IMG/VR virus record: IMGVR_UViG_3300022918_000007
Span: 1-40,632 of that record
Strand: one strand, 5' to 3'
DNA: 40,632 nt
Source of the DNA: a virus
A program made the position numbers and the translations under genes. Below the pieces are notes generated by a model. The model saw only the letters and a program-made list of their open reading frames with translations. It was not told the origin of the DNA and did no database searches. Shown in pieces: positions 1-32,197 of the stretch (position 1 is the stretch's first letter; every line of letters starts with the position of its first letter).

Positions 1-127
1 TTCGTAGCACCGTAATCGAAAGACAGAACTATTCTGCTCCAGTCATTGATCGCATATTTATCCAGGAGAAATAATGTTGCGATGCAAAGCTGGAAAACAC
101 CGGTGCGCATCACAAACATCATCATCT
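1..127. repeat. Terminal overlap: identical to 40506-40632 (circular closure; unique genome about 40,505 bp)
   Basis: Both ends read base by base: ttcgtagcaccgtaatcgaaag...cacaaacatcatcatct is present at both termini. A minus-strand ORF stays in frame across the junction. Confidence 0.9.
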
Positions 128-1232: not shown

Positions 1233-2594
1233 CTATTGTTTTGTTTCGGTGCCGGATGGAGATTCATTCAATGGAACCGGCACGTCGTGCTCAAATCCCC
1301 AGCAGATCTCCGGTGGCCAACCGTTGAAAGCCTGGACAATGCGCAGCGGGTGAGTAATTATCCATTGGTGGGCGTGCGACATCGATACAGCGTTGGTGTG
1401 GGCCACACGCTTGTCGGATCCGGATCCCGCGCCCATTTTTCCTCCAGCTGGCTGCAAGCCGGCCAAAGAAGAGTCCATGTCGAGAGCTCGCGCTGTTTGT
1501 GTGTCTGCTTCCTGGGTAGAGGTAAGCATAGCATCGGGACTTGTCTTATTATCCAAAACCGTAATAATCCATCCGGCAAGCGGTTTCCCTGTTACTTCGT
1601 CCGTTGCGAAATGTGTGATAAAGCTTTTCCCGGAATTCTTGTCGCCTTTTAACCAGTCCTGCATTACTGTAAGCTTATCATCGATGAATGCTTTTTGAGC
1701 TTTATCGTCCAGCCCGTCGAAATTGGAGTTGATCGATCGCCAGTATTCATAAGGGATTTGGATGTGGTACTTGATATTCAATCCGTTTTCATTGATCGTG
1801 TTCATGATCACCGGCACGGAGCTCGCATAGTCGAGCCAGCCCTTGTCCTTGAAAAGCGCTGCGTGCGGAGCGATCGCGTAAAGCGGGCGCCCTGGTGAAG
1901 GGAAGCAGATATGCATAGCGAATTTCTTCTTGCTTTTTGCGATTTTTCTGATGTTATCCGGGCTGGCATATCTCCGATTAACGTAAGGAATTTCAGATTT
2001 CGTTTTCGGATCAGCCCAGTTGCCATCGTAAACGATAGTCTGGATCTCGTTTTTATCGTTAGCTGGCCCGAATCGAGAAAATTCCGCCTCGAGGTGGGAA
2101 AAGTTGGTGATTTTCTTTAACGCCTTATCCAGGATAAATTCACAAAAGAGATTGTTCAATGAATTATGGTCCTGCAGCCGCTCGAGCATGAAGTAATTAG
2201 CATCGTTTTCAGCGAGAAAAGTTTCAATTTCCGGAACCCGTGAATAGTCTCGTAACCAGGTGGTCTTATCTTCATCTAAAAATGGTTTCCAATAGACCAG
2301 GCCCTTCCCATACATCAAAGCCGTTTTTTTCGCGATTAACGGAAGTGCTGTTGTTGAAGCTTCGAGTTTTTTCCTGGCGTTTTGAGGATATTGGTTGTCG
2401 GTTCCCCAGGGCTGATACTCTGCAGAGGTATCGAGATCTTCTGTTTTTTGTTCCGGAACGTAGTCCGCGCCGGCGTCAGGTGATAATACCGAGAAAAGCG
2501 CATTGGAACCCTCACCCAAAACAACCGCTTCGATACTCATTACGCCACCATTGACGCCTGCTTTTTTCTGGGAGACTACCCTGTTTTTACTCAT
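1233..2594 (-). CDS. Putative portal protein
   Basis: 453 aa, a size typical of portals. The Gly/Ser-rich segment AGGKMGAGSGSDKR and the overall composition resemble portal proteins. Called from position and resemblance only. Confidence 0.45.
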   Translation of the reverse strand: MSKNRVVSQKKAGVNGGVMSIEAVVLGEGSNALFSVLSPDAGADYVPEQKTEDLDTSAEYQPWGTDNQYPQNARKKLEASTTALPLIAKKTALMYGKGLVYWKPFLDEDKTTWLRDYSRVPEIETFLAENDANYFMLERLQDHNSLNNLFCEFILDKALKKITNFSHLEAEFSRFGPANDKNEIQTIVYDGNWADPKTKSEIPYVNRRYASPDNIRKIAKSKKKFAMHICFPSPGRPLYAIAPHAALFKDKGWLDYASSVPVIMNTINENGLNIKYHIQIPYEYWRSINSNFDGLDDKAQKAFIDDKLTVMQDWLKGDKNSGKSFITHFATDEVTGKPLAGWIITVLDNKTSPDAMLTSTQEADTQTARALDMDSSLAGLQPAGGKMGAGSGSDKRVAHTNAVSMSHAHQWIITHPLRIVQAFNGWPPEICWGFEHDVPVPLNESPSGTETKQ

Positions 2595-2893
2595 AACATG
2601 ACTTTTTTGCCATTCACCTCCAACAGGAGAGAAAGATGAAGCTTGCGAATAACTGAAGACGGGATGCCATTCATACAGATCAGGACATTGCGGGTGAAAT
2701 TGTCGTAATGATTCGCGGCTTTCGGTTTCGCCACACTGGATGGTACCTGCTCGGATTTTTCAGGTTGCGAATACACTACTTCGGCGAATTCTCGAATTTT
2801 CCCGCCGGTGCCCCTCTTCTTATCGAAAGTGACAACCTTACAGGAGAACGGCTTCCCGGACTCTATTATCTTCAATGCTTCAGCAAGCTTCAT
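2591..2893 (-). CDS. Hypothetical protein, first gene after hairpin cassette A
   Basis: 100-aa ORF with a 4-nt overlap onto the portal candidate start. Its ATG is part of the conserved 49-bp cassette. Confidence 0.6.
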   Translation of the reverse strand: MKLAEALKIIESGKPFSCKVVTFDKKRGTGGKIREFAEVVYSQPEKSEQVPSSVAKPKAANHYDNFTRNVLICMNGIPSSVIRKLHLSLLLEVNGKKVML

Positions 2894-2939
2894 AAAGCAA
2901 AAATCCCCACTTGCGCGGGGATTCTATAGGACAGGAAAT
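2891..2939 (-). promoter_or_regulatory. Conserved 49-bp hairpin cassette, copy A (stem 2902-2908/2917-2923, U-tract, ATG)
   Basis: 45/49 identical to 17475-17523. Minus-strand RNA reads AUUUCCUGUCCUAUAG-AAUCCCC-GCGCAAGU-GGGGAUU-UUUGCUUU-AUG. Confidence 0.75.
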
Positions 2940-2940
2940 T

Positions 2941-3171
2941 TTAGCCAATTCTTTGCTCTAGTGCTTTCCTCGTTTCTATGTAGTTGTCGTAATTTCCCCA
3001 CCGTGGGCCTGTTTCCATAAATGAAGAAAAATTGCGGCCTCGAGTATCGTTTATTCCAGAGACCCGAAAATAGTTCTTGTCGCCAGCTTGTTGGTTAATA
3101 AATTTACGAAAGTGCATTTCATTCTCGCATAATACAGCGATCGGGTGACCGGGACTACTTTTATGTTTCAT
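2941..3171 (-). CDS. Hypothetical protein (last gene of the early-type accessory block)
   Basis: 76-aa ORF packed in series with its neighbours. Confidence 0.5.
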   Translation of the reverse strand: MKHKSSPGHPIAVLCENEMHFRKFINQQAGDKNYFRVSGINDTRGRNFSSFMETGPRWGNYDNYIETRKALEQRIG

Positions 3172-3176
3172 GTTTA

Positions 3177-3410
3177 TTACGTCGTTACTTCGATAAAAAC
3201 TCTTTCAATTGCGTTCACTATGCGAACCATATTGAATTCATTGTCCTCTACTCTGAGGGTATCACCGTTATGCTCGAAATGGATGAATCCCTTTTGAATG
3301 GTTATCTCAATGGATTCATCGAAACACACCAGCTTCTCACCATCACTAGCGTAATTTTCATACTGGAAATCAAAGCCATATTCTATGAATTTTGCTGCTA
3401 TCTTTTCCAT
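3177..3410 (-). CDS. Hypothetical protein
   Basis: 77-aa ORF with 3-5 nt gaps to its neighbours. Confidence 0.5.
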   Translation of the reverse strand: MEKIAAKFIEYGFDFQYENYASDGEKLVCFDESIEITIQKGFIHFEHNGDTLRVEDNEFNMVRIVNAIERVFIEVTT

Positions 3411-3413
3411 ACT

Positions 3414-3809
3414 TCAATTAATTGGATTGACATTCGTTTCGTAATCATCATCGCTCGTTATGATTTTTACCAGCAATCCATCGCAAAAATCAGCGTCAGG
3501 AACTTGCTCAATTTCTCCAGTCTCTCTGTTTTTACGATGGAAAACGAGCACGTGACCGTTAGACCGCTGAATGCGAATATATCCGAAGCCCTCATGCCGC
3601 CCATGATCTTCACCATTACTGATCATCGAATGGGCTACATGGATGGCCATGTCTTCGAGATATTCCACGTCTGTAAAATATTTAGACCACTCGGCCAAAT
3701 ACTCAGAAGTCCATATTTCCTGATCAAAATGAATTTCATATTCATCTGTCCGGGAGATTTCTACGTTATACTTTTTCATTCTTCTTGTTTTTAGGTTTTG
3801 AACGTTCAA
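3414..3809 (-). CDS. Hypothetical protein (start more likely the internal ATG at 3779, MKKYNVEIS...)
   Basis: 131-aa ORF. The longest form overlaps the upstream gene by 44 nt; the internal Met reduces this to 14 nt. Confidence 0.5.
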   Translation of the reverse strand: MNVQNLKTRRMKKYNVEISRTDEYEIHFDQEIWTSEYLAEWSKYFTDVEYLEDMAIHVAHSMISNGEDHGRHEGFGYIRIQRSNGHVLVFHRKNRETGEIEQVPDADFCDGLLVKIITSDDDYETNVNPIN

Positions 3810-4596
3810 TTTCCCTGGCCATCTCGACCAGGATTATAAGCCAATTTTGGAGATCGGTCTGATCGATCGGGCCAAACTTATTTCCACTCATCTCCAGGAG
3901 TGGGTCCAGCCATCCCAGTTTCGAGGTTTTATTGGAGGCGCCTTTAAAAAGGGGCGCAAGCAAGCTATTATTCACAAGCTTCGCATCGCGGGCCGACCAA
4001 TAGTAAAGCAAAGCACCAACTGCGTAGTGGGGTTTCAGGCGCTTCGCGTAGATCTTCGCGCGATCGACGGCCATGTTCTTGTTGAATGGTTCCCGGACGT
4101 CACCGTTCCACCTGGTTGGATCGTTCCTGAAGCTCGAGAGATCTTTCCGCTCCGGACGCCAGAGAATGGCAAACAGTAACCAGATTGAGTCGTGACTTTT
4201 TCCGTTGGTAAATGCCAGGAACGCCTCGTCAGCTGCACGGAATTCACCGAACGACAAATCGTTCAGCAATTCCTGCGGTCCGAACACAGATCCCCGGAAC
4301 CGGCTGAGCCTGATCACAGGCATTGGGTTCGTCCGGAGCTTCGGCGATCGGAGCGCCCAATCGGTGTGAGGCAGGATATCCAACCACTGCTCAGGGTCGA
4401 TATCGCCAACCAATTTCTCCGGAACGTTGCTGAGGATCCGGAACAGCAAGATCCTGGTTGCATTGTACTGGATCACATCATTCGAATCGGTGTAGTTGGC
4501 CAGCGCCCAGAAAACCCTCATGGTTTCTTCCTGGTCCATTTCAGACCAGGAAGATTTTAGAAGGTAACTTGTTTCATCAAATTTGAGATTGATCAT
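3766..4596 (-). CDS. Hypothetical 276-aa protein preceded by three GTGCTAC repeats
   Basis: Long ORF with no recognised motif. The repeat triplet lies 21 nt upstream of its ATG. Confidence 0.6.
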   Translation of the reverse strand: MINLKFDETSYLLKSSWSEMDQEETMRVFWALANYTDSNDVIQYNATRILLFRILSNVPEKLVGDIDPEQWLDILPHTDWALRSPKLRTNPMPVIRLSRFRGSVFGPQELLNDLSFGEFRAADEAFLAFTNGKSHDSIWLLFAILWRPERKDLSSFRNDPTRWNGDVREPFNKNMAVDRAKIYAKRLKPHYAVGALLYYWSARDAKLVNNSLLAPLFKGASNKTSKLGWLDPLLEMSGNKFGPIDQTDLQNWLIILVEMAREIERSKPKNKKNEKV

Positions 4597-4616
4597 AATT
4601 TTTGAAGTAAATAGGT

Positions 4617-4639
4617 GTGCTACCGTGCTACCGTGCTAC
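4617..4639. repeat. Three tandem copies of GTGCTAC(C) (8-bp period), the same motif family as the 18.4-18.7 kb array
   Basis: Plus strand reads gtgctaccgtgctaccgtgctac. It overlaps the last codons and stop of 4620..5297 and lies upstream of 3766..4596. Confidence 0.8.
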
Positions 4640-5297
4640 TTTCTGAGCTTGATAAGTTAACAATGCGATGGCCGGAAATGGATTGTATCTGTTCTTTAGT
4701 AACCACGTTTTGCGTGCAAAATATTATCCGACTAGGTGGCGAAATATTACTGGGCTTCTCAATACGGTGGATAATTTCTTGAATAAACTTTACATCCGTT
4801 ACTTCGTCAATTATATAAAGCATCTCACTACTGTCAGCGAAAGTATCGACTAAATCGACCTCGACGTCGAACTGCCTGATCTGCTGAACATTTTTATGGT
4901 ACTTTCCTATTGCTTCTGACAAAACGGTCTTCCCTGATGCGGAAGGTCCGGATAGCACTAAAAACTTATCCCTCTTATCAAAGAGTTGTTTAGCATCAAA
5001 TTGTAATTTGAATTTCCTGGCTTGAAGCACGAGTTCTGACATGTAAGCCGGCTTATCCAAATCGCTTATGAAAGCATCCTGATATTTCTTCAGGCCACGG
5101 GTTTTCATCTTCCCTGACGGAACCGCGCCTGGCTCGGGGAAAAAGAAGTACGCTTCATATTGGAGGTCATACAAATAGGTAAAGAGAAATCTAACAGTAC
5201 GAAGCTCTTTTAATTGTGTTTCCGGGTTTACCTCTGACCAGTTTTCTTCTACGTGATGAAGAAATAAGTTGGATTCTAATTGTTTATCGATTTGCAT
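4620..5297 (-). CDS. P-loop NTPase
   Basis: Walker A LSGPSASGKT and Walker B-like MLYIIDEV. 225 aa. Confidence 0.6.
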   Translation of the reverse strand: MQIDKQLESNLFLHHVEENWSEVNPETQLKELRTVRFLFTYLYDLQYEAYFFFPEPGAVPSGKMKTRGLKKYQDAFISDLDKPAYMSELVLQARKFKLQFDAKQLFDKRDKFLVLSGPSASGKTVLSEAIGKYHKNVQQIRQFDVEVDLVDTFADSSEMLYIIDEVTDVKFIQEIIHRIEKPSNISPPSRIIFCTQNVVTKEQIQSISGHRIVNLSSSESSTVAR

Positions 5298-5313
5298 TAT
5301 TTATTGCGTTAAA

Positions 5314-6243
5314 TTATTTGAGTTCTTCGCCGATTTTCATCGGCACGTTTTCGTTAATAAGAAGTTCAACAGCCTTGTTCCATTGGATTACCTCTTCGAA
5401 GTTGTTTTCGTTGAATTGCTGGAGAGTGATAAATGTCTGATGCCATCGGATAATTCGCGCGGTTGGACATATCTTTTCGACTTCGATGAAGTAGGGATAA
5501 AGAACGACTCCGCCTTCCAGCAGTCCTGTCTCGCGCTGATCATCTTGAACATATTTGACATAATCCTTACCGAAGGCAGCGAATTCGATTCGCAGCACTG
5601 GAATCTTTGTAAATTTTAGCTCCAGTTCTTCTAACGATCGTTCTGATTTGTCATCAAAGAAAATGGGGCTGGATCCGACAGCAGCTGCAGGGGTAGCTTC
5701 CTTCATTTTTTTATGCTCGAGTAGTGCCTGGTAACTGTGAGTTTTAGAATCTCCCTTCAGGTAAAGAGGATGTGCAGGATGGCCGCCGACTGTCAAGGTG
5801 AATGCATGGGCCCAGGGAAACAATTTGATGATCTCCTTGTCCCGATCGAACAGTTCTCCATGGTTGCCCCAGGCAAAAACAGTCCTGGTACATTTTCGGT
5901 CCATCTCCAGAAGGTGCTCAATATTTACCTTTTTGTATTCCGGAGATTGGTTCGGCTTAGGGTTTCTTTTCAGTTCTGCCGGATCCGTGGAACGAAAGGG
6001 AAACAGATTTCCTACCCAGATACCACCGAATCCCCAAGATTTGGCAAAAGCGACGCATCGGGTAATCGTTGGATCATTAATTAGAGCGCCGGCTTTACTG
6101 GGATTAAGCATGATGAAGAACACCATTTCTTTACTGGCATCCCATAGTCGGTAAAGAGAGAATCTGAACTGCTTGTTTTCACTAAAGGTTGCGCCGGTTG
6201 CACCGCTTGGAACCAACATGTAAGCTTCTGTTATTTGTTTCAT
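5314..6243 (-). CDS. DUF1643-like domain protein with a C-terminal extension of about 130 aa
   Basis: The N-terminal half carries RFSLYRLW, FIMLNPSKA, DPTITRC and NLFPFRSTDP, the pattern I associate with DUF1643. The ATG overlaps the upstream stop (ATGA). Confidence 0.55.
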   Translation of the reverse strand: MKQITEAYMLVPSGATGATFSENKQFRFSLYRLWDASKEMVFFIMLNPSKAGALINDPTITRCVAFAKSWGFGGIWVGNLFPFRSTDPAELKRNPKPNQSPEYKKVNIEHLLEMDRKCTRTVFAWGNHGELFDRDKEIIKLFPWAHAFTLTVGGHPAHPLYLKGDSKTHSYQALLEHKKMKEATPAAAVGSSPIFFDDKSERSLEELELKFTKIPVLRIEFAAFGKDYVKYVQDDQRETGLLEGGVVLYPYFIEVEKICPTARIIRWHQTFITLQQFNENNFEEVIQWNKAVELLINENVPMKIGEELK

Positions 6244-6551
6244 TGAAAAAGATTTAATTGTTCATTATTGTTGCCGTACTTCCTGGTAGTTGCACGCTGG
6301 CCAGTGTCGTGTTTCAAGTGGCAGCGCTGGCACCAATGCCGTAGATTTGAAAACCGGTTGTTTTTGATATCCTGATCCAGATGAGCCGTTGTGAGAATAA
6401 CGATACTTCCAGTGACCGGGTGCAGCCGGCCATGGATCGCCCGGCAATCCGGATAGGCTGGAGAACCTTCGCACCGGTTCCCCGATCGCCGGCGTATCAT
6501 CCGAACGATCAGGGTCCATTTTGGATGGTAATTTTCGAGATTAATCGGCAT
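6240..6551 (-). CDS. Small HNH endonuclease ending in a QLNLF clamp-binding-like motif
   Basis: Cys/His-rich protein: CEGSPAYPDC, AHLDQDIKNNRFSNLRHWCQRCHLKHD (H-N-H with flanking CxxC). The C-terminus is EQLNLFQ. Confidence 0.65.
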   Translation of the reverse strand: MPINLENYHPKWTLIVRMIRRRSGNRCEGSPAYPDCRAIHGRLHPVTGSIVILTTAHLDQDIKNNRFSNLRHWCQRCHLKHDTGQRATTRKYGNNNEQLNLFQ

Positions 6552-6792
6552 TTGGCAGGAGGTTTTTCGGGTTTAGTTCTGAAAAATAGGTTGAGCCTTT
6601 CAGGGCGCCAGTTATTTTTAAGAAGTCTACTTCCACCTTGGAGCTCTCTACTATTTCCTTGGAGATCTCGGCAACTGCTTTCGCACGTTTACACTCTGCA
6701 GCCAACTCATCACCTTTCAATTCCTCGTCATTAAGTCGCTCTAATTGCGCGAAGAGGTGATCTCTTAGATCTTCGATTTTATTTCTCGCCAT
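6541..6792 (-). CDS. Hypothetical coiled-coil protein
   Basis: 83-aa charged, helical ORF that overlaps both neighbours by a few nt. Confidence 0.5.
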   Translation of the reverse strand: MARNKIEDLRDHLFAQLERLNDEELKGDELAAECKRAKAVAEISKEIVESSKVEVDFLKITGALKGSTYFSELNPKNLLPNAD

Positions 6793-7417
6793 GTTGTTTG
6801 ATTTTACGTTTAATTTTTGCTGTTAATCGGAGAACTTCTTTTAGATCCTCCGGATAATTGTGAATCGTATTTCGTTGCATGAGCTCTGCGTCAGTCAAAA
6901 GCTCCAGATTGTTGAGTTCTGCATTCAATGTATTGCGATCCTTAAATATGAGGTTCATTCCTTTCGGAATTGGCCCATGCGCCTGCATCCAGTTCCATCG
7001 ATGAAGCGACTCCCATTTTCCGTTGGAAATCCGAATGAATTGGTAGAAAATCCCCCTTTTGTCCGCTCTGATGGTTATGTCACCATCCTTTTTCGTGTTA
7101 TGAGGAAGATCCCCTTTCTTAAACATTGTTGGCTCTGCTTTTGCCCGTACCTCTGCGGACATTTTCAGGCCTTTATTAGCTGGAGAGTTACCAGGCATGA
7201 AGCGGAAAGAAGCGCCTAATTTACTTCCCGGTGTTATCCTGCCAGAAGCTTCAGATAAGTGGAACTCAGGACTTTTTTTTAGCCCAAGCTCTTTTGCCTT
7301 TCCATACACCGACGAAAGCGAATGTTGAACCTGGAAGGATATTTCCCTCGTGATGGTGTGGGGATAAAGTTGGTGAAGCAGATCAAGTTCCTCGATTGTC
7401 CATTTTCGACGACTCAT
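6779..7417 (-). CDS. HNH_3-like (homing-endonuclease-like) protein, possibly degenerate
   Basis: HRWNWMQAHGPIPKGMNLIFKDRNTLNAELNNLELLT resembles the HNH_3 pattern, but the usual His of VxHxDGN is replaced. Confidence 0.45.
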   Translation of the reverse strand: MSRRKWTIEELDLLHQLYPHTITREISFQVQHSLSSVYGKAKELGLKKSPEFHLSEASGRITPGSKLGASFRFMPGNSPANKGLKMSAEVRAKAEPTMFKKGDLPHNTKKDGDITIRADKRGIFYQFIRISNGKWESLHRWNWMQAHGPIPKGMNLIFKDRNTLNAELNNLELLTDAELMQRNTIHNYPEDLKEVLRLTAKIKRKIKQHGEK

Positions 7418-7428
7418 AACTCAGCTGA

Positions 7429-7749
7429 TTAAATGGGGAGATTTAGCGAGCTCACGGGGATCAGTTTGATATCGACCAGGCTGTAGATCCGTTTTCGTTT
7501 TAAGTGGTCATCTACCCAATGGACGGATTGAGGATCCCACTCCAGAGGTTTACACCTGGAGGTACAATCTAACTCCGCGCGTTTTAATACGCCATCGAGT
7601 AGATCTTCTGCGAATTTAAGGCTGGGAACAAGCAGGCCGTCCATTTCTTTGAATGATTTCATTGCCAGCTTCTGCATCTGGTTTTTAGGTGTGTAGTCCG
7701 CGTTAACGTGGATCAGTACCATTTCTGTCATGTGGAATTTCATAGTCAT
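7429..7749 (-). CDS. Hypothetical protein
   Basis: 106-aa ORF with a 4-nt overlap onto the upstream gene. Confidence 0.5.
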   Translation of the reverse strand: MTMKFHMTEMVLIHVNADYTPKNQMQKLAMKSFKEMDGLLVPSLKFAEDLLDGVLKRAELDCTSRCKPLEWDPQSVHWVDDHLKRKRIYSLVDIKLIPVSSLNLPI

Positions 7750-8429
7750 ATTATAAAATCAGGATTAGTTATTTTTTCGACGGTAATCACCCAGACCCAT
7801 GGGTTCCAATCTGTTATTTTTGGGCCGTAAATTGACCGCATCAGTGTACGGAAGCTCGATTCAGGGAAATACTCTGAGTAAATTCCTGTTTCGTAGTTCA
7901 GGTATGTATCTGTGCTTTTTTTGACACCTTCCGCTTCAGCCGCAGAGAAAGTGATGTCGCTTAAACGCTCTAGGTCGATTGCTGTTATTTTTAACCAGAT
8001 CCGCGAATGTGATTTAGGCATGTCTTTGATCGGGTTCCATTTTTGGCCGAGATATTCTCCGTAACGTTCATTAGCCTTAAACAATACCTGATCGCCAGCA
8101 TTCGCCCATGCTTCACACACATAAAGTATATCACCAGGTATGCCGTAAGGACATTGGATGTCTATATTTTCACCAGTAAAGTCAGCTTTCGAGTAAGCGT
8201 TAAAACGTGCATAGGGAGAACGCGGAAATTCCCTCACTGATTTCCATTTCCCAGGATGCTTATTTATAGCCTCAAGACCATCTAACCTTCGGGTTTCGGT
8301 CTTGCGGTTGTCAAGAAAGGAGTGAACCATATCTGCATTACATGATATCGACCTTACAACAGGATTCGATCCCAATTCATTAAGAGATGAAGGATAACAG
8401 CCCCTTTTAATAGTCTTCTGGGCTCTCAT
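7746..8429 (-). CDS. ASCH-like domain protein (tentative)
   Basis: VHSFLDNRKTETRRL near the N-terminus resembles the GRKTQTRR motif of ASCH-type phage proteins. Confidence 0.35.
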   Translation of the reverse strand: MRAQKTIKRGCYPSSLNELGSNPVVRSISCNADMVHSFLDNRKTETRRLDGLEAINKHPGKWKSVREFPRSPYARFNAYSKADFTGENIDIQCPYGIPGDILYVCEAWANAGDQVLFKANERYGEYLGQKWNPIKDMPKSHSRIWLKITAIDLERLSDITFSAAEAEGVKKSTDTYLNYETGIYSEYFPESSFRTLMRSIYGPKITDWNPWVWVITVEKITNPDFII

Positions 8430-8677
8430 AACAACTTAAGTAATTGTAACATGGACCCGAGAAAGAATCCCAGTGTAAAAAAACCCAACATCAACCATGA
8501 CCATGAACGCCTGTTGATTTGATAGACTGCTTTTCTGAATTCCAGCTCGGCTTTTATCATTTCAAACTCTGCTTTTGTCTCAAGAATTTCCTGTATTAAG
8601 TCAAAAAGATCTGTTGAATGCTGTAGACGCTCTGCTGTCTGCGGCAGTGATTCATGTTTGTTACTAAATGATCTCAT
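8426..8677 (-). CDS. Small tail-anchored membrane protein
   Basis: 83 aa: an N-terminal helical region followed by the C-terminal hydrophobic segment SWSWLMLGFFTLGFFLGSMLQLL. Confidence 0.5.
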   Translation of the reverse strand: MRSFSNKHESLPQTAERLQHSTDLFDLIQEILETKAEFEMIKAELEFRKAVYQINRRSWSWLMLGFFTLGFFLGSMLQLLKLL

Positions 8678-9111
8678 CGCTGAAATGTTTTTTTAATTTT
8701 ATGCAGAAAAACCTGCGCTGAAAAGCATTTTCCGAGAACGATGTTCATTGTAGGAACGAGCTTACCGTTATGGAAAACGATACCAGGAATCGGAAGACTG
8801 GAGTCAGAGAAATACTTTTCTGAATCATACTCTTCAGATATGTTGTCCGGACCGGCCGCGGCGATCATTTCCGCATACTCATCCTGGGTAGCGTGAACGC
8901 AATATTCCCCTTCCCATAGTATCCTTACTGCTTCCAATTCTTCAGATGTGAGCAGATTTTTTTTGCGGCGACCATCTTCGGCTTTTGCCTGGCGGCGGCG
9001 TAGTTCTCCACCAAGTAGAAGATCCAATTCCTGCAGCTCAGTGTAACTACAGGATGACAGGAATTGCTCAACAGTAATAGTGAGCGTGTATTGTTTATTA
9101 AGAGTTGGCAT
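8674..9111 (-). CDS. Hypothetical protein
   Basis: 145-aa ORF with translationally coupled overlaps. Confidence 0.5.
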   Translation of the reverse strand: MPTLNKQYTLTITVEQFLSSCSYTELQELDLLLGGELRRRQAKAEDGRRKKNLLTSEELEAVRILWEGEYCVHATQDEYAEMIAAAGPDNISEEYDSEKYFSDSSLPIPGIVFHNGKLVPTMNIVLGKCFSAQVFLHKIKKTFQR

Positions 9112-9826
9112 GGCAGGTGTTTTTAGTTAACTGAAGGAAAACTTCAAAGCAACATTGACGGCTACTGGCTGAAATGGCGGACGGGTTTAAGATTAGTTTC
9201 CCTCCCCGGAACAGAATTCCAGTGCAGCCGATCATTTTAATTGGATATCCGTTTAGTCGAGAGTCATCAATTATTTGTTGATATTGTTCGACTGTCCCGC
9301 CAATGAAGTAATCACCATCACGGAGTTGTATGTTCCAACGCGCAATTCGTACAGCGATTAGCGGAAAAGAATAAACAGAGTAAGGCAAAACTTCCAGGAA
9401 GTCAGCCATTGTATCCCAGTAGTGGCCACAGGAGTTTGGAATATCACCGATTTCTTTGACAAGATCAGGATTGTTTTCCGGATCCATACGTAAGAATCCT
9501 GTCTGTAAAAACAAAGCGTCGCTTTCACTATAAGATAAACTCTCTGTTACTTCGTCCAAGATTGCAAAATCGATATTCAGACCACGCATGGATGAATTTC
9601 CTATAGCCAAAGTTTTCGTTTGTGTAGATTGATGTTCATGCTTAAAAAGCAAGTTCAGTTGTAAACAAAGCTCTTCCCCAAAGACCTTCCTCATGAAATC
9701 ATTATGTGCCATATCTAAAATCGCTCTCATAAAGGCGAGGATATCCTCATCGAATGTAAGCCTGGCCGCATGTCCAACAAGGCTATCTTCCTTGCGTAGC
9801 TCTTGCATTAATTCTTGATGGTTCAT
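9098..9826 (-). CDS. Hypothetical protein
   Basis: 242-aa ORF with no recognised motif. Confidence 0.55.
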   Translation of the reverse strand: MNHQELMQELRKEDSLVGHAARLTFDEDILAFMRAILDMAHNDFMRKVFGEELCLQLNLLFKHEHQSTQTKTLAIGNSSMRGLNIDFAILDEVTESLSYSESDALFLQTGFLRMDPENNPDLVKEIGDIPNSCGHYWDTMADFLEVLPYSVYSFPLIAVRIARWNIQLRDGDYFIGGTVEQYQQIIDDSRLNGYPIKMIGCTGILFRGGKLILNPSAISASSRQCCFEVFLQLTKNTCHANS

Positions 9827-9831
9827 ATCTA

Positions 9832-10056
9832 TTACATTAAGTCAATAGCTGATTCCAGATCAGAGAGCGCCGATTCGAAGCCCTCAACTACTCCCTGTAG
9901 TGTATCAGTGATTTCCTGGTAGGCTTCACCTTTTTCCGATTCCTGCCATTTTTCGGATCGGTCATCGTAGTAAGATTCACGGTCTTCAATAATCTGTTCG
10001 AACTCAGCCTTCAATGCTGAGGCCTTCTCTTCTAATTTTTGTACTGTCTTTTTCAT
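9832..10056 (-). CDS. Small, highly acidic helical protein
   Basis: 74 aa, very rich in Glu/Asp (EEKASALKAEFEQIIEDRESYYDDRSEKWQESEKGE...). It is the second gene of the operon. Confidence 0.55.
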   Translation of the reverse strand: MKKTVQKLEEKASALKAEFEQIIEDRESYYDDRSEKWQESEKGEAYQEITDTLQGVVEGFESALSDLESAIDLM

Positions 10057-10093
10057 CTGCTTTTTTTATATTGATTATTAAATAGGCACCGGA

Positions 10094-10585
10094 TTAACGG
10101 TGCTGGAGTTGCTTTTTTTTCAATTCAATGGACCGCTGCTGCCGACTGACCTCGAGCTGAACAGACACGGAATTGCGTTCGGTTACTTTATCCAGGAAAT
10201 CTGGGTGAGTGGTGTTATTTAATATCCAGTCAGTCAGCGTTGCATGCTTCGAAAGCAGGTCGTTGTAGATGCGCTCAGGGCTTGTGCCTGAGGAAAGTGT
10301 CCTTCCCTTTAATCGGTTCACCTGTAGAATGTTTCTAGCTATAGCTGCGGCCTCTAAGTCGAAGTTTTTAATGAGCGTGAACCCTGAATGCTGATTGCCG
10401 GAAGATAATGGCGCACCGTAGTCCAGCCTTAATGAGACAAGATCGCCGGCCAGCGTGTGGACCGAATAAGATTTTCCGGGAATAGCTTCCCGAACTTTAG
10501 TATGCAAGTTGTTTCTGGACAGTGCTCCAGGGAACTGTTGAATTGCTTCAACAATAACTTTTAAACGATCGTATCTGTTACTCAT
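10094..10585 (-). CDS. Putative winged-helix (HTH_11/YafY-like) DNA-binding regulator, first gene of the accessory block
   Basis: Start moved to the internal ATG at 10585 (MSNRYDRLKVIVEAIQQ...), because the listed N-terminus MFLFCFFFVSF is a translation of the A-tract promoter repeats. The pattern RxDRLxxIxxxI...SxxTLxxDLxxLRxxxGAPL resembles HTH_11 regulators. Confidence 0.45.
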   Translation of the reverse strand: MSNRYDRLKVIVEAIQQFPGALSRNNLHTKVREAIPGKSYSVHTLAGDLVSLRLDYGAPLSSGNQHSGFTLIKNFDLEAAAIARNILQVNRLKGRTLSSGTSPERIYNDLLSKHATLTDWILNNTTHPDFLDKVTERNSVSVQLEVSRQQRSIELKKKQLQHR

Positions 10586-10600
10586 TGGAAATGTTTTGCC

Positions 10601-10656
10601 CAAAAGTAGAATAAAAGAAACAAAAAAGAAACAAAAAAGAAACAAAAAGGAAACAC
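10601..10656 (-). promoter_or_regulatory. Promoter with a TACTTTTG -7 box (10601-10608) and four GAAAC units phased at 11 bp
   Basis: The minus strand reads GTGTTTCCTTTTTGTTTCTTTTTTGTTTCTTTTTTGTTTCTTTTATTCTACTTTTG, then 15 nt, then ATG. It matches the Bacteroidota TAnnTTTG consensus and is near-identical to 37126-37180. Confidence 0.65.
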
Positions 10657-10827
10657 TTTTGGTAATTTGATGGAAATTCTCAAAATGAAAAGGCTTTATA
10701 ATTGTGTTACAACCCTTTAAATCCGGTGGATTCGATAAAAAATATCAAAATCAAAGAGTAACGCGCGTCTATGGGTGTGACGATTTGTTTAAACAATTGG
10801 TACAGTTTTCAGGATATGTGTGGGGGG

Positions 10828-15052: not shown

Positions 15053-15075
15053 AAAAGGGGGAGAAGATCTCCCCC
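15053..15075 (-). terminator. Intrinsic terminator after the capsid candidate
   Basis: The minus strand reads GGGGGAGA-UCU-UCUCCCCC followed by UUUUG. Perfect 8-bp stem at 15057-15075. Confidence 0.7.
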
Positions 15076-16223: not shown

Positions 16224-17477
16224 TTAGACCTTTCCGAGATCTGCGTCCAGTTTGGCCCACATAGGATCATTGGGATCCTCCCAGCTGGCCAGTACCTTTC
16301 CGTCCCCGGAAACGATTGGCTTATCTTCAGCTGCAGCTCCAGGCTTAGCGCCGATGATATCCACTTCGGCTTTCAGTGTAGATAGGCCTGTTTTAAGCTC
16401 TGTAACGCTTGCGGTTATCCCGGCAAGTCCTGCTGCCACCGCATTGGTAACAGCTGCAGAGATCTGCTCAGTTGTTAATGCCGGTGATGTTGCTGCTTCA
16501 GGTCTGGAATCAGCAGAAGGGACCGTCAGGGCCGCATTCACTTTTTCCCAATCTTCTGCAGACATCGTTGTAGCATCGGTAACTTCTCGTCCGAGAATCG
16601 CCGAAATTTTTACGAATTGATCTTTCATTGATTTTTTATTTGTTTGTTTATTATTGCGTAGGAAATTGAAGCGCCAGCTCATATTTTTGATATTTGATTG
16701 GACATATTGAATAGTTTCGGCCATTGATTGAATGCCATCGATCAGCCCCAGGGCAAGCGCCTTGTCGGAAGTCATTATTTTGCCTGTAAAAACAGATTTG
16801 TCGACATCCGGACGTGCGCCGAGAACAGCACTGTGAAACACTTCGTTGATAGGGTCAAGAATGCTCGTTCTCATCAACTCGTATTTTCCCTTCAGTGCTT
16901 CAGTGAACTCGAGATTTTTTTCAGTGGATTTTGTAGCGTTGATGATGTGGGTAACCATTGGCTGCTCAACGCTCGGATTAGCCGCGCGAAAAGAAGACAG
17001 CGTTCCGATAGATCCGACCAGGTCGGTTGAAACAGAAGCAAAGATTTTATCGGTCTGAGATGCTATGTAGTAGCAAGCCGAGGCGCAGGTTCCGGAGTAG
17101 TAGGAAACAATTGGTTTGGAGAAGTTCTGAATAGCGATTGCAACGTTTGGCATATAAGATGCCTCACCGCCGCCTGAGTCGAGATCCAGGATAACGGAGT
17201 GGATTGTAGGATCCTGGTCAAGTACCTGGAGCAGCGAAACGAAGCTCTTCATACCCATGTCGCCGCAGTTATCGTGCTTCATGATCACGCCGGTGATCGA
17301 CACTATCGCCGTTTTACCGCCGGCATCGGCAGCATGCGTGGTTGATGACTTGGAGGATACGTGTGTAAGGTCGACAGTTTCGCCCGCTAAGATTCTCTCA
17401 ACGATCGGCGCAAGTGATAGAGCGTAAGACTCATCAATTGCCCAGGTTCCCCTTAGAATGGAATGCAACAAATTCAT
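16224..17477 (-). CDS. S49 (SppA/ClpP-fold) prohead protease with a scaffold-like C-terminal extension
   Basis: ILDLDSGGGEA and GTCASACYYIAS motifs of S49 peptidases. The C-terminal ~140 aa are Ala-rich and helical. Confidence 0.75.
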   Translation of the reverse strand: MNLLHSILRGTWAIDESYALSLAPIVERILAGETVDLTHVSSKSSTTHAADAGGKTAIVSITGVIMKHDNCGDMGMKSFVSLLQVLDQDPTIHSVILDLDSGGGEASYMPNVAIAIQNFSKPIVSYYSGTCASACYYIASQTDKIFASVSTDLVGSIGTLSSFRAANPSVEQPMVTHIINATKSTEKNLEFTEALKGKYELMRTSILDPINEVFHSAVLGARPDVDKSVFTGKIMTSDKALALGLIDGIQSMAETIQYVQSNIKNMSWRFNFLRNNKQTNKKSMKDQFVKISAILGREVTDATTMSAEDWEKVNAALTVPSADSRPEAATSPALTTEQISAAVTNAVAAGLAGITASVTELKTGLSTLKAEVDIIGAKPGAAAEDKPIVSGDGKVLASWEDPNDPMWAKLDADLGKV

Positions 17478-17523
17478 GAAGCAAAAATCCCCACTCGCGC
17501 AGGGATTCTAAAGGACAGGAAAT
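17475..17523 (-). promoter_or_regulatory. Conserved 49-bp hairpin cassette, copy B (stem 17486-17492/17501-17507, U-tract, ATG of the protease)
   Basis: 45/49 identical to 2891-2939. The single stem substitution is a G-U wobble only in the minus-strand RNA. Confidence 0.75.
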
Positions 17524-17529
17524 AAGCGC

Positions 17530-18039
17530 CTAAATGAAGAGATTCAGCTGAGTAGCTCGTTCTTCCGGGGTTTCTTTTCTCATGACTGGAGGGTTGCGCC
17601 GGCGGTAGAACCTCTTCTGAACGGTATGGAGCGCCAGGACATCTTCCGGGATCTCGTAGTAATGGAGAAACTGAGCGATCGCAAGCTCAATGTTCTGTCC
17701 CATATCATGGCGGCGGTTGGCGAAATGGAAGAGCTCGTCATCGAAGAGCTCTTTCAGCACGGTGTCAATTCTTAATATGACATCCGGATCGATCGTAAAT
17801 TTTTTCTCCCTGGCCATTTCCGTACTCATCTCGATCTCGAGAATCGAATCGAATTTTGGATCAATCTTGAATTTCGGGCGGATGTAATCCTTTTTGATAG
17901 GTTCCAGGATCAACGCTGATATGTGACATGACTTGTTGGTGAGCTGGAAGGGCTCAACGCTTTTTTTCTTACCGATGTAGAGCTTCAGATAGTACTGAAT
18001 CGGAATTTTAACGGAGAACTTCATATAGATAGTAAGCAA
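17530..18039 (-). CDS. Hypothetical protein ending in a QLNLF clamp-binding-like motif
   Basis: 169-aa ORF (the alternative ATG at 18024 removes most of the overlap). The C-terminus is ERATQLNLFI. Confidence 0.55.
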   Translation of the reverse strand: MLTIYMKFSVKIPIQYYLKLYIGKKKSVEPFQLTNKSCHISALILEPIKKDYIRPKFKIDPKFDSILEIEMSTEMAREKKFTIDPDVILRIDTVLKELFDDELFHFANRRHDMGQNIELAIAQFLHYYEIPEDVLALHTVQKRFYRRRNPPVMRKETPEERATQLNLFI

Positions 18040-18325
18040 GTTGATCAGTTGATGAAGCGTTACTTCTGCTCATAACATGAGCAGTACATTCAGAAGCACG
18101 AACGCCTTCTGCCAGGTAAGCGAAGACATCCGGGATCAGATCAGATATCCGTACCAGGGCAATGAGCTGTACCTGGTACTCGATATCCGTTTCGGGATCG
18201 TAGATCGTTACGGGAATTGGGAAGTGAGATGAGTTTAGCCGGCCGGCTTTATACCGGGCAATATGGCTCACAAAACCACTTAGGATTTTAATAGTCGCGT
18301 TTGGGACAGGTATGACTTTTTCCAT
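18008..18325 (-). CDS. Hypothetical protein, first gene downstream of the repeat region
   Basis: 105-aa ORF. Confidence 0.5.
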   Translation of the reverse strand: MEKVIPVPNATIKILSGFVSHIARYKAGRLNSSHFPIPVTIYDPETDIEYQVQLIALVRISDLIPDVFAYLAEGVRASECTAHVMSRSNASSTDQLAYYLYEVLR

Positions 18326-18369
18326 TCTCCCACTAAATTATCTAAAATTGCCGATAAAAAACCATAAAT

Positions 18370-18387
18370 GGAACAAAAAGGAAACAC
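18370..18387 (-). promoter_or_regulatory. Partial copy of the GAAAC/A-tract promoter element
   Basis: The minus strand GTGTTTCCTTTTTGTTCC shares 17/18 positions with the 10639-10656 unit. It lies between the octamer array and the ATG at 18325. Confidence 0.45.
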
Positions 18388-18400
18388 ATTTGGGAAAAAC

Positions 18401-25450: not shown

Positions 25451-25974
25451 AGATCCCAGTCGTTAGAGTTAAAGCAAGTGTCAAACGGCACATTCAACAG
25501 GATCGAAACCTGCCAGCCGGTATACGGCAATGCGCCGACCCTGGTGTGAGGAACGACCCGGACATTACTAATAACATCAAAAGCGCGCTTCAAGACGGGG
25601 TCGCCGTTCTTTGAGTCAAACTTCATTCTCGCCAGGATCTCGTTAACCACATTTTGGCAAGCATCCTTCGCCTGGCGCTCCTTAATCGTATCACCACTTT
25701 TGTAGGCCTGGAGAACGAAGAACATAACCTGGTGCTTATCCAACTCTTTAGCACTTCCCTTCTGCCAATCAATCGTTCGCACGTAGTCGATGAAGTGCAT
25801 GAACGGTCCTAATTTCGGATCGGGAAGATAGGTGGTGGTTGCAAGGAAGAAGTTTTCCAGGGTGGTACAGAAAAATTTCTGATGGTGGGGCTGAACGCCC
25901 ACGGCGTGCTTGATTTTCTTGTTCTGAATTGCGAGCGTTTCAAAATAGGATACCCACGTTGTGTAAAAAGCCAT
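25447..25974 (-). CDS. Hypothetical tail protein (distal-tail position)
   Basis: 175 aa with an ATGA overlap onto the 813-aa gene. It is the first tail gene after the moron island. Confidence 0.45.
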   Translation of the reverse strand: MAFYTTWVSYFETLAIQNKKIKHAVGVQPHHQKFFCTTLENFFLATTTYLPDPKLGPFMHFIDYVRTIDWQKGSAKELDKHQVMFFVLQAYKSGDTIKERQAKDACQNVVNEILARMKFDSKNGDPVLKRAFDVISNVRVVPHTRVGALPYTGWQVSILLNVPFDTCFNSNDWDL

Positions 25975-26023
25975 GAAGCGAATTTCTCAATACGCGCGCG
26001 GGCGCGAAAGGACAGCGATTACT

Positions 26024-31717: not shown

Positions 31718-32104
31718 CTAGAGGTTGGGGTTTTCTAAAGCGTCAATAATATCCTGGACAATCATCTGAGCATATAACTCAGCGTAATCGAGATCGATCT
31801 GCTCGATGTGAGCATTAATCGCCTCACTTCTCCAGTGTTTCGGTGTCAGATCAACGCCTTTTCCAAAAACATTACTTGCTCCATTTTCCCAGAGAAAGCC
31901 GTACCACTCGTAAGAGAAAGTAAGGGAGTCAACCACGCTGTCTTTTGTTGTGACAGCACCTTTGAGTGAGTTGAGTAAAACGGACTTGTCGACAAGATCC
32001 ATCGCGTGAAGGTTCCTGGCCATGTCACCAAGCACCAAATCGATAGATTTCTTTCCAAGCTCCTTTGCTTTGGCTAGATCGTAATTGCTCCAGTCCAATT
32101 TCAT
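31718..32104 (-). CDS. Candidate tail assembly chaperone (by position)
   Basis: 128-aa acidic ORF, 2 nt upstream of the tape measure gene. Confidence 0.35.
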   Translation of the reverse strand: MKLDWSNYDLAKAKELGKKSIDLVLGDMARNLHAMDLVDKSVLLNSLKGAVTTKDSVVDSLTFSYEWYGFLWENGASNVFGKGVDLTPKHWRSEAINAHIEQIDLDYAELYAQMIVQDIIDALENPNL

Positions 32105-32143
32105 CTTGCGAAAATGGCTGTAAACGCATGCTCAGGAAAGGAC

Positions 32144-32173
32144 AAAAAAAAGCCCCGAACGAGCGTCCGGAGC
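32144..32173 (-). terminator. Strand-specific intrinsic terminator ending the early operon
   Basis: Minus-strand RNA has a 9-bp stem containing two G-U pairs (C-A mismatches on the plus strand), followed by U8. Confidence 0.7.
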
Positions 32174-32197
32174 TATCCTTTATGTCAGTAAAGAATG

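What the first reader, a model, noticed from the sequence alone, without database searches (positions are those of the whole stretch)
2891..2939. Conserved 49-bp hairpin cassette marks the boundary between the accessory block and the portal operon
The gap between 2941..3171 and 2591..2893 is filled entirely by a cassette that recurs, 45/49 identical, upstream of the prohead protease at 17475-17523. On the coding (minus) strand it reads ATTTCCTGTCCTATAG, then a 7-bp stem AATCCCC/GGGGATT with an 8-nt loop, then TTTTGCTTT and the ATG. A terminator-shaped hairpin placed directly against a start codon, and conserved well beyond the stem, is not an ordinary terminator. It could be a regulated terminator (an antitermination target), a late-promoter/leader cassette, or a translational operator.
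Basis: partly seen in the sequence, partly recalled or inferred. Interest (0 to 1): 0.65.

Follow-up and report, generated by a model that had tools for sequence, protein, structure and literature searches.

The report
Phage late promoter with built-in terminator
The repeated 49-bp cassette is most likely one of four late-gene promoters of a temperate phage of Bacteroidota, placed so that transcription would start on the ATG itself; its hairpin is an ordinary terminator for the upstream operon, tucked into the promoter's spacer.

Summary
The two copies, 2891-2939 and 17475-17523 on the minus strand, are 45/49 identical and each has a strong hairpin followed by a U-tract.

The hairpin is not the conserved core. 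The conserved feature is a two-box motif, TGTCCTWT-N20-[not T]AnnTTYG-N4-ATG. It occurs four times in the window against 0.01 expected. Each copy abuts the first ATG of a structural operon: TMP, tail, protease/capsid/terminase, and portal.

Relatives only 30-52% identical in protein carry the same motif at the same four operon starts, mostly at the same 35-nt spacing. They include the cultured Polaribacter phage Leef_1.

Box 2 matches the Bacteroidota sigma-A -7 box (TAnnTTTG, at -12 to -5) except that its first base is never T. In that register the predicted start site is the A of the ATG, which would give leaderless late mRNAs.

Each cassette has an intrinsic terminator either directly upstream of box 1 or nested in the spacer, never both. 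The cassette with a divergent upstream gene has none.

Best reading: factor-dependent late promoters, each insulated by a terminator. No transcript data exist, and the trans-factor is unknown. A conserved 164-aa protein with no known fold match is a candidate.

"Not an ordinary terminator" is not.

The parts
2926..2933 (-). W1 box 1 (TGTCCTAT), predicted -40..-33 of the portal-operon late promoter
   Evidence: T-40, G-39, T-38, C-37 and T-35 are invariant in 19 cassettes.
2900..2925 (-). W1 nested hairpin AGAATCCCCGC-GCAA-GTGGGGATTTT in the promoter spacer, followed by TGCTTT. Read as the intrinsic terminator of the upstream accessory operon (10585..2941).
   Evidence: -19 kcal/mol, z = -3.4. 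One search lists it as terminator-like. The closest relative, L023, keeps 28 identical nt here.
2898..2905 (-). W1 box 2 (GATTTTTG), a sigma-A -7-like box at predicted -12..-5
   Evidence: The register comes from PMC9723704.
2891..2893 (-). ATG of the 100-aa gene that heads the portal operon. Its A is the predicted transcription start (+1).
   Evidence: The 35-nt spacing from TGTCC to ATG holds in 22 of 23 cassettes.
17510..17517 (-). W2 box 1 (TGTCCTTT), protease/capsid/terminase operon
17484..17509 (-). W2 nested hairpin. It has one C-to-T change that keeps a G-U pair, and a GCGA loop. Read as the terminator of the 105-aa/164-aa operon.
   Evidence: -15.7 kcal/mol
17482..17489 (-). W2 box 2 (GATTTTTG)
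17475..17477 (-). ATG of the S49 prohead protease; predicted +1
   Evidence: Peptidase_S49. The N-terminus MNLL is shared with relatives.
25972..26014 (-). W3 cassette (TGTCCTTT-N20-GAAATTCG-CTTC-ATG) heading the tail operon (175 aa, 813 aa, 623 aa and onward). It has no hairpin and no upstream terminator; its upstream neighbour is a divergent + strand gene (about 26049-26349).
32102..32144 (-). W4 cassette (TGTCCTTT-N20-CATTTTCG-CAAG-ATG) heading the 128-aa plus tape-measure operon
32145..32174 (-). Intrinsic terminator of the early (primase) operon. Its T-run abuts W4 box 1.
   Evidence: (upstream fold -17.3 kcal/mol)
17530..18024 (-). 164-aa conserved protein directly upstream of W2. Candidate (unproven) late-transcription factor.
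   Evidence: A family member is found in every related genome whose relevant region was retrieved. AF2 gives pLDDT 93. There is no PDB fold match. It is a homologue of Leef_1 gp39.
18008..18325 (-). 105-aa protein co-transcribed with the 164-aa gene; function unknown
   Evidence: Synteny in L001-L003, L009 and L012. No Pfam or PHROG hit.
10595..10663 (-). The contrasting promoter class: a canonical sigma-A-type promoter (TACTTTTG -7 box) behind 11-bp phased TTTGTTTC repeats, which drives the accessory operon that W1's hairpin ends. Similar elements lie at 18340-18395 and 37120-37220.

Best explanation
The cassette is a phage late promoter fused to a terminator.

Shown directly:
- A two-box motif, TGTCCTWT-N20-[G/C/A]AnnTT(T/C)G-N4-ATG, heads each of the four structural operons of this roughly 40.5-kb temperate siphophage.
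- The same motif heads the equivalent operons of its relatives.

Inferred:
- Box 2 acts as a host sigma-A -7 element. It lacks the consensus T at -12.
- Box 1 replaces the host -33 TTTG element with a phage-specific TGTCC site centred near -38. These two departures would make the promoter silent without a phage factor, either a class-II-type activator or a sigma-appropriation or alternative-sigma-like protein.
- Because Bacteroidota -7 boxes lie at -12 to -5, transcription should begin at the A of the ATG, giving leaderless late mRNAs.
- The hairpin plus U-tract in copies W1 and W2 lies in the duplex spacer (-32..-7), so the promoter's own transcript does not contain it. It is transcribed only by polymerases arriving from the upstream early or accessory operon, and it terminates them. 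This insulates the late operon. The terminator's T-tract doubles as the TTTG of box 2.
For: - The motif gives 4 hits in the window against 0.01 expected. All are on the coding strand and abut the first ATG of the TMP, tail, protease and portal operons.
- Twenty-three non-redundant cassettes were collected from the window and relatives with 30-52% protein identity. They lie at the same four operon starts, with 35-nt TGTCC-to-ATG spacing in 22 of 23.
- With no start-codon constraint, 18 of 21 motif hits still have ATG at exactly that position.
- In the position matrix, TGTC, T-35, A-11, T-8, T-7 and G-5 are invariant, G-14 is present in 17/19, and -12 is never T.
- The sigma-A TAnnTTTG box is reported at -12 to -5 in Flavobacterium (PMC9723704).
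- The host is of Bacteroidota type. Zero of 43 genes have an SD core, the region upstream of start codons is A-rich, and three other intergenic regions hold canonical or near-canonical -7 promoters (exact TACTTTTG in two). Related prophages sit in Pontibacter and Fibrivirga.
- Terminator placement is complementary. Each cassette has either an upstream hairpin (-11 kcal/mol or stronger) abutting box 1, or a spacer hairpin (-13.6 kcal/mol or stronger), never both. W3, which has a divergent upstream gene, has neither.
- The 5' arm of the nested hairpin shifts by 1 nt between phages while staying complementary to a fixed 3' arm. Its variable positions keep G-U or A-U pairs.
- Cultured Polaribacter phage Leef_1 has six TGTCCTTTT boxes (0.9 expected), four of them directly after a near-identical terminator, and they precede its portal, neck/TMP and protease operons.
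- Mea-Yong924-1 has five ACGCTGTCCTT boxes (0.02 expected).
- No phage RNA polymerase or sigma factor was found by Pfam or PHROGs.
Against: - There are no transcript data. The start site, the late timing and termination are all inferred.
- Box 2 fails the canonical consensus at -12 and box 1 lacks the -33 G, so recognition by sigma-A is an assumption.
- Leaderless mRNAs are uncommon in Bacteroidota: 5.5% in F. psychrophilum, and 3.7% with a UTR under 10 nt in B. thetaiotaomicron.
- In distant relatives some boxes sit 15-35 nt from the annotated start (Leef_1 gp13 and gp41; Mea-Yong 17597), so leaderlessness is not universal.
- All seven nested hairpins share the same arm sequence (ATCCCC/GGGGAT). 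This could also indicate a protein-binding palindrome.
- L007 has neither type of terminator despite a co-directional upstream gene.
- No trans-factor has been identified.
Confidence: 0.62

Rival explanations
1. Regulated terminator or antitermination target. The late genes are transcribed from one distant promoter, and the TGTCC box or the hairpin is where an antiterminator (Q-, N- or put-like) acts so that polymerase reads through.
For: The hairpin plus U-tract is terminator-shaped and sits between operons. All genes of the region are co-directional, so read-through is geometrically possible.
Against: - In about 14 of 23 cassettes the TGTCC box lies downstream of the terminator; in 7 it lies upstream. 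A cis-acting antitermination site must precede the terminator.
- W3 follows a divergent gene and a bidirectional terminator, so it needs its own promoter.
- The box is locked to the ATG, not to the hairpin.
- In one relative the tail module is inverted relative to the head module.
Confidence: 0.08
2. RNA-level element. The conserved boxes plus the AUG form a translational operator or an RNase processing site in a polycistronic transcript, for example a site that generates mature 5' ends at the AUG.
For: The distance to the ATG is fixed at 35 nt in 22 of 23 cassettes. The 4-12 nt just before the ATG are conserved.
Against: - Strong terminators directly precede the element in most copies, so little transcript would carry it.
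- W3 has no co-directional upstream transcript.
- Box 2 equals the DNA -7 consensus in 7 of 8 positions.
- Some distant relatives keep the box1-N20-box2 unit but vary its distance to the start codon.
- No Rfam family matches at gathering score.
Confidence: 0.07
3. The inverted repeat ATCCCC...GGGGAT is a DNA operator for a dimeric phage repressor or activator that sits between the -33 and -7 regions of some late promoters. In this reading it is not a terminator.
For: The arm sequence is the same in all seven nested copies, across phages with only about 40-50% protein identity and across different operons. Upstream terminators, by contrast, vary freely in sequence.
Against: - Nested hairpins occur exactly where an upstream terminator is missing, and never together with one.
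- Each is followed by a T-tract.
- The 5' arm shifts by 1 nt and the loop length varies from 8 to 9 nt.
- Arm variants keep G-U pairs, which matter only in RNA.
- The shared GGGGA can be explained by promoter constraints at -14, -12 and -11.
Confidence: 0.1
4. Promoter for a phage-encoded single-subunit RNA polymerase. ...CCTATAG superficially resembles the T7/SP6 ...CACTATAG.
For: ATTTCCTGTCCTATAGAA resembles the SP6 promoter ATTTAGGTGACACTATAGAA by eye. This comparison is from memory, not a test.
Against: - No RNA polymerase domain was found in any ORF by Pfam or PHROGs. The large unassigned ORFs (813 and 623 aa) lie in the tail module.
- The TATAG is not conserved: most copies read TGTCCTTT.
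Confidence: 0.02

Closest known systems
Bacteroidota primary sigma-factor (sigma-A / sigma-ABfr) promoters: -33 TTTG and -7 TAnnTTTG
   Same: Box 2 (nAnnTTYG) matches the -7 consensus in 7 of 8 positions. About 20 nt separate it from a T-rich -33 region. The phage's own early promoters carry the exact TACTTTTG.
   Different: The first T of the -7 box is never present. The -33 G is missing and is replaced by an invariant TGTCC at -40..-36. The register places +1 on the ATG, whereas typical Bacteroidota 5' UTRs are 24-32 nt.
Phage T4 middle promoters (MotA box plus sigma-70 -10 element; sigma appropriation by AsiA/MotA), and class-II activator-dependent late promoters generally. This comparison rests on established knowledge, not on a test run here.
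   Same: The logic is the same: a host-type -10/-7 element is kept, the -35/-33 element is replaced by a phage-specific box, and the box recurs before each regulated operon.
   Different: No MotA or AsiA homologue, or any other known activator, was detected. The box sequence and position differ (T4: TGCTTtA near -30; here TGTCC near -38). The host RNA polymerase is of Bacteroidota type.
Rho-independent (intrinsic) terminators
   Same: A GC-rich stem of 8-11 bp, a tetraloop, and a following U-tract (UUUUUGCUUU), directly after a stop codon.
   Different: The hairpin is nested inside the spacer of the next promoter, so its T-tract is also the -7 box. Its arm sequence is constrained (always ATCCCC/GGGGAT), unlike the free-standing terminators in the same phage group.
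Leaderless phage and bacterial mRNAs, for example lambda cI from PRM (established knowledge)
   Same: The predicted start site coincides with the A of an AUG. All cassette starts are ATG, never GTG or TTG, in the close group.
   Different: Here leaderless starts would apply to whole late structural operons, in a phylum where leaderless mRNAs are only about 4-5% of transcripts. This is not experimentally verified.

Membership tests
Intrinsic (Rho-independent) terminator | Stable GC-rich stem-loop immediately followed by a U-rich tract, downstream of a coding region on the transcribed strand | tested here: met
   W1 folds at -19.0 kcal/mol (z = -3.4) and W2 at -15.7 kcal/mol. Both are followed by TTTTTGCTTY and lie 1-7 nt after the stop codon.
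Intrinsic (Rho-independent) terminator | Transcript 3' ends form at the U-tract | not testable with these tools
   Needs Term-seq or 3'-RACE.
Bacteroidota sigma-A promoter | -7 box TAnnTTTG at -12..-5 | tested here: inconclusive
   A-11, T-8, T-7 and G-5 are invariant and T/C-6 is present, but -12 is G, C or A and never T in 19 cassettes. The position relative to the start site is assumed, not measured.
Bacteroidota sigma-A promoter | -33 TTTG/TTG element about 19-21 nt upstream of the -7 box | tested here: not met
   Positions -35..-32 read T-W-T-(A/C/T) with no G. TGTCC occupies -40..-36.
Sigma-54 promoter | GG and GC dinucleotides with the fixed -24/-12 spacing (TGGCACG-N4-TTGCW) | tested here: not met
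   In W1 and W2 the GG-to-GC distance is 8-10 nt, not 12. The C after TTTG is not conserved (11/19).
T7/SP6-type single-subunit RNAP promoter | Cognate phage RNA polymerase gene in the genome | tested here: not met
   No RNAP domain was found by Pfam or PHROGs in the ORFs scanned, which include every large one.
Antitermination site (nut/qut/put type) | Site lies promoter-proximal and upstream of the terminators it suppresses | tested here: not met
   The box lies downstream of the terminator in most cassettes.
Known structured RNA families (Rfam 15) | Match at or above the gathering score | tested here: not met
   No hits at gathering score in the whole window. The best sub-threshold hit over the cassette is CRISPR-DR21, at 24 bits against 48 needed.
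T4-like sigma appropriation (MotA/AsiA) | MotA- or AsiA-family proteins encoded by the phage | tested here: not met
   No such Pfam or PHROG hit. The resemblance is functional only.

The most novel reading that the evidence does not exclude
A lineage of temperate Bacteroidota siphophages (Helgolandviridae-like, including cultured Polaribacter phage Leef_1) runs its late programme through a previously undescribed transcription system. In this reading a small phage protein redirects host RNA polymerase to TGTCCTTT-N20-nAnnTTYG promoters that start on the AUG, so all structural operons are made as leaderless mRNAs. The protein would be from the 164-aa / Leef_1 gp39 family, which has no match to any solved fold. 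Terminators would be nested inside promoter spacers as a compaction device.
Probability: 0.3. Interest if true: 0.7.

Novelty: new variant of a known kind. Interest (0 to 1): 0.55.

Why it matters
- Promoters of Bacteroidota phages are almost uncharted. This work gives a concrete, family-wide late-promoter consensus that can be tested in a cultured system, Leef_1 on Polaribacter sp. AHE13PA.
- The consensus improves start-codon and operon annotation. For example, it predicts an upstream ATG giving a signal-peptide-like N-terminus for Leef_1 gp04.
- It names a candidate regulator family with no detectable structural relatives.
- If the factor is found, the 43-nt cassette could serve as a compact, orthogonal, terminator-insulated expression module for Bacteroidota genetics.
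- Leaderless late operons would bear on how SD-less Bacteroidota ribosomes initiate translation.
- The motif also flags "Microcystis phage" Mea-Yong924-1 as using Bacteroidota-phage signals.

Tried and rejected
- Megablast of 20 kb against the phage collection found no match.
- An exact cassette pattern and the protease protein found nothing close in IMG/VR.
- A capsid-protein profile found only 2 loci in GTDB genomes, 2 in IMG/VR and 1 in JGI metagenomes, so the group is rare in those sets.
- A word-indexed homologue search with the 164-aa protein returned only itself. The full HMMER scan was needed to find relatives.
- The single-sequence AF2 model of the 164-aa protein was unusable at pLDDT 39. 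The alignment-based model reached pLDDT 93 but matched nothing in the PDB. PDB sequence-profile searches were also negative, as was Pfam on 46 family members.
- A sigma-54 reading was rejected on spacing.
- A T7/SP6-like promoter reading was rejected because there is no RNA polymerase gene and the TATAG is not conserved.
- A CRISPR-repeat resemblance was sub-threshold, and there is no array.
- Literature searches for the motif, or for late promoters in Bacteroidota phages, found nothing relevant. The Leef_1 paper does not mention promoters or terminators.
- I did not build a covariance model. The hairpin arms are nearly invariant, so there is no covariation to model, and no large collection scans remained.

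Full report
**1. The observation**

On the minus strand, 2939..2891 and 17523..17475 are 45/49 identical. A 22-nt core pattern finds only these two sites even with 3 mismatches; shuffles gave 0.00 expected. The first copy fills the 47-nt gap between the stop of ORF 2941..3171 and the ATG of ORF 2591..2893. The second fills the gap between the 164-aa ORF (stop at 17530) and the S49 prohead protease (ATG at 17477; Pfam Peptidase_S49).

Both copies fold into an 11-pair hairpin with a GNRA loop, followed by UUUUUGCUUY. Copy 1 folds at -19.0 kcal/mol (z = -3.4) and copy 2 at -15.7 kcal/mol (z = -1.9).

**2. The genome**

Bases 1-127 equal 40506-40632 exactly, so this is a circularly closed genome of about 40.5 kb. 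It encodes:
- an integrase;
- a primase-helicase;
- a tape-measure protein;
- an S49 protease;
- a large terminase;
- a portal (weak PHROG hit, confirmed by homology to the annotated Leef_1 portal);
- a DUF6712 protein;
- a GH108 endolysin.

Nearly all genes are on the minus strand. No gene out of 43 has an SD core at -20..-4, against a 14% background, and the region upstream of start codons is A-rich. Two of the three other intergenic regions carry an exact Bacteroidota -7 box (TACTTTTG) behind 11-bp phased TTTGTTTC repeats; the third is similar but has no clear -7 box. Distant relatives are prophages of Pontibacter and Fibrivirga, both Cytophagales. The closest cultured relative is Polaribacter phage Leef_1. 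The host is therefore a member of the Bacteroidota.

**3. What is actually conserved**

A scan for TGTCC-N35-ATG found four sites in the window, not two. The fuller pattern TGTCCT-N23-A-NN-TTYG-N4-ATG gives exactly these four hits even with one mismatch allowed, against 0.01 expected. All four are on the coding strand, and each abuts the first ATG of a structural operon:

| Cassette | TGTCC starts at | Operon headed |
|---|---|---|
| W4 | 32144 | 128-aa gene plus tape measure |
| W3 | 26014 | 175-aa, 813-aa and 623-aa tail genes through to the endolysin |
| W2 | 17517 | protease, capsid and onward to terminase |
| W1 | 2933 | 100-aa gene, portal, DUF6712 |

I fetched relatives through protease and portal homologues. 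They have only 30-52% protein identity and no detectable DNA similarity. They still carry the motif at the same operon starts. In total there are 23 non-redundant cassettes, and 22 of them have exactly 35 nt between TGTCC and the ATG. With no constraint on the start codon, 18 of 21 motif hits still have ATG at that position.

The position matrix from 19 cassettes shows:
- T-40, G-39, T-38, C-37, T-35, A-11, T-8, T-7 and G-5 are invariant;
- C-36 and T-33 are present in 18/19;
- G-14 is present in 17/19;
- position -12 is G, C or A and never T;
- the 20-nt spacer is otherwise unconstrained.

The hairpin is therefore not the conserved core. W3, W4 and most cassettes in relatives lack it.

**4. 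Why this is read as a promoter, and why as leaderless**

Box 2 matches the Bacteroidota primary-sigma -7 consensus TAnnTTTG in 7 of 8 positions. In Flavobacterium that box occupies -12 to -5 (PMC9723704). Applying that register puts +1 on the A of the ATG in every close-group cassette.

Box 1 occupies -40..-33. Its 3' TTT lies where the -33 TTG would be, but without the G, and the invariant TGTCC lies just upstream. A weakened -7 box, a missing -33 element and a phage-specific box centred near -38 together form the classic layout of a factor-dependent promoter, whether through a class-II activator or sigma appropriation as at T4 middle promoters. That last comparison rests on established knowledge, not on a test run here.

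Independent arguments for a promoter:
- About 14 cassettes have a strong terminator ending directly against box 1. The downstream operon must therefore be re-initiated within the remaining 43 nt.
- W3 follows a divergent + strand gene and a bidirectional terminator.
- In one relative the tail module is inverted relative to the head module.
- More distant phages keep the box1-N20-box2 unit but sometimes move it 15-35 nt from the start codon (Leef_1 gp13 and gp41; Mea-Yong 17597). This argues against an AUG-linked RNA operator.

Leaderless mRNAs are a minority in this phylum: 5.5% in F. psychrophilum, and 3.7% with short UTRs in B. thetaiotaomicron. The leaderless prediction is therefore the least secure step.

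**5. The hairpin**

Across the 23 cassettes, a stable hairpin lies in one of two places:
- immediately upstream, with its T-run abutting box 1 (fold -11 to -22 kcal/mol);
- inside the spacer (-13.6 to -16.5 kcal/mol).

No cassette has both. Neither is present in W3, which has no co-directional upstream transcription, or in L007, or in one doubtful hit in L005.

Nested hairpins occur in:
- W1 and W2;
- the portal cassette of the closest relative, L023, which is 28 nt identical to W1 including the GCAA loop;
- the tail cassettes of L001, L002, L003 and the IMG/VR contig.

The simplest reading is an ordinary intrinsic terminator for the upstream operon. Here W1 would end the sigma-A-driven accessory operon 10585..2941, and W2 would end the 105-aa/164-aa operon. 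The terminator is simply placed inside the next promoter's spacer, so that its T-tract is also the TTTG of box 2.

All nested hairpins share the arms ATCCCC/GGGGAT, unlike the freely varying upstream terminators. Promoter constraints at -14, -12 and -11 fix most of the 3' arm, which explains this. The 5' arm shifts by 1 nt between phages, and its variants keep G-U or A-U pairs. This favours RNA pairing over a fixed DNA contact. An operator function for the palindrome cannot be excluded.

**6. Breadth**

- Leef_1 (NC_062750) has six TGTCCTTTT boxes against 0.9 expected. They precede gp02, gp04, gp05 (portal operon, spacing 35), gp13 (neck/TMP), gp41 (protease) and gp46. Four of them (gp05, gp13, gp41 and gp46) follow a T-rich tract, and three of those a near-identical terminator CCACTCT...GAGTGGTTTTTTTA. 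Box 2 in Leef_1 is often nAnnTTGY.
- Mea-Yong924-1 has five ACGCTGTCCTT boxes against 0.02 expected.
- The Pontibacter prophage uses the variant TGTCTTTT three times.
- The Leef_1 paper does not discuss promoters, and literature searches found no description of this motif.

**7. The trans-factor**

No RNA polymerase, sigma factor or known activator was found.

A 164-aa protein (17530-18024) lies directly upstream of the protease cassette in the window and in all close relatives. A profile of its family finds a member in every related genome whose relevant region was retrieved, including Leef_1 gp39 and a post-primase gene of Mea-Yong924-1. The alignment-based AF2 model is confident (pLDDT 93) but matches no PDB fold. 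Its only match in BFVD is the Leef_1 homologue.

In the window, its gene sits behind a promoter flanked by 12 GTTAGCACG repeats. Relatives keep a version of these repeats. This protein is a reasonable candidate regulator, but co-occurrence could simply reflect shared ancestry. This step is inference only.

**8. Verdict**

The cassette is best explained as one of four factor-dependent late promoters, predicted to be leaderless, with a conventional terminator nested in the spacer. This is a new variant of known kinds of element: a phage late-promoter class and an intrinsic terminator. It is not described for Bacteroidota phages in the literature I could search.

The finding is of moderate interest. 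It rests on solid comparative evidence but has no expression data.

Noticed in passing
window 1-127 and 40506-40632: An exact 127-nt terminal duplication. The window is a circularly closed genome of about 40,505 bp.
   Followed up: partly
window 18400-18675: Twelve copies of GTTAGCACG (8 on the minus strand, 4 on the plus strand) flank an AT-rich palindromic stretch near 18600-18650, between the endolysin gene and the 105-aa/164-aa genes. Relatives keep GTTAGCACGGTAGCAC just upstream of their 105-aa gene. It looks like an iteron or operator array, either a replication origin or a regulatory switch.
   Followed up: partly
window 10595-10663, 18340-18395, 37120-37220 (minus strand): A second promoter class. 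It consists of 11-bp phased TTTTTTGTTTC repeats followed by a Bacteroidota -7 box (exact TACTTTTG at 10.6 kb and 37.1 kb, unclear at 18.3 kb) and a 10-20-nt leader, and it heads the accessory, regulator and early (primase) operons. The same architecture is found in relatives (L012, L014, L017).
   Followed up: partly
window 26335-26360 and 27514-27541: Two near-identical bidirectional terminators (AAAAAGCCCCG...CGGGGCTTTTT) bracket a small island that includes a + strand gene at about 26049-26349, divergent from the tail operon. It may be a moron or lysogeny island.
   Followed up: no
window 13574-13611 (minus) and 15057-15075: A perfect 17-bp hairpin plus T7 lies at the junction of two head-module genes. 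A palindromic terminator lies right after the putative major capsid gene. Both may be internal attenuators of the protease-to-terminase operon.
   Followed up: no
L022 (MZ447863.1, 'Microcystis phage' Mea-Yong924-1) 13084, 17593, 19628, 23765, 28685: This phage, reported as a cyanophage, carries five ACGCTGTCCTT late boxes with TTTG-type -7 boxes, the same portal and protease module, and the 164-aa family gene. All of these are typical of this Bacteroidota-phage group, so its host assignment deserves a second look.
   Followed up: partly
L017 6119-7075; L020 7017-8177: Relatives encode a reverse transcriptase (RVT_1) in the accessory block between terminase and portal. The window has HNH, DUF1643 and AAA-ATPase genes at that position instead.
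   Followed up: no
L021 (Leef_1) 1808-1850: The cassette register predicts that Leef_1 gp04 starts at an ATG upstream of the annotated one. That start would give an MKKIFLLFCLMF... signal-peptide-like N-terminus.
   Followed up: no
window 18711 (+ strand): A lone TGTCCTAT on the plus strand with a box-2-like AAATTTTG placed 3 nt too far away, pointing antisense into the endolysin gene. It is probably chance.
   Followed up: no
L014 8894: A TGTCCTTT-N20-GAAGTTTG unit lies about 20 nt upstream of the ATG of a 122-aa accessory gene. It may be a leadered member of the same promoter class.
   Followed up: no
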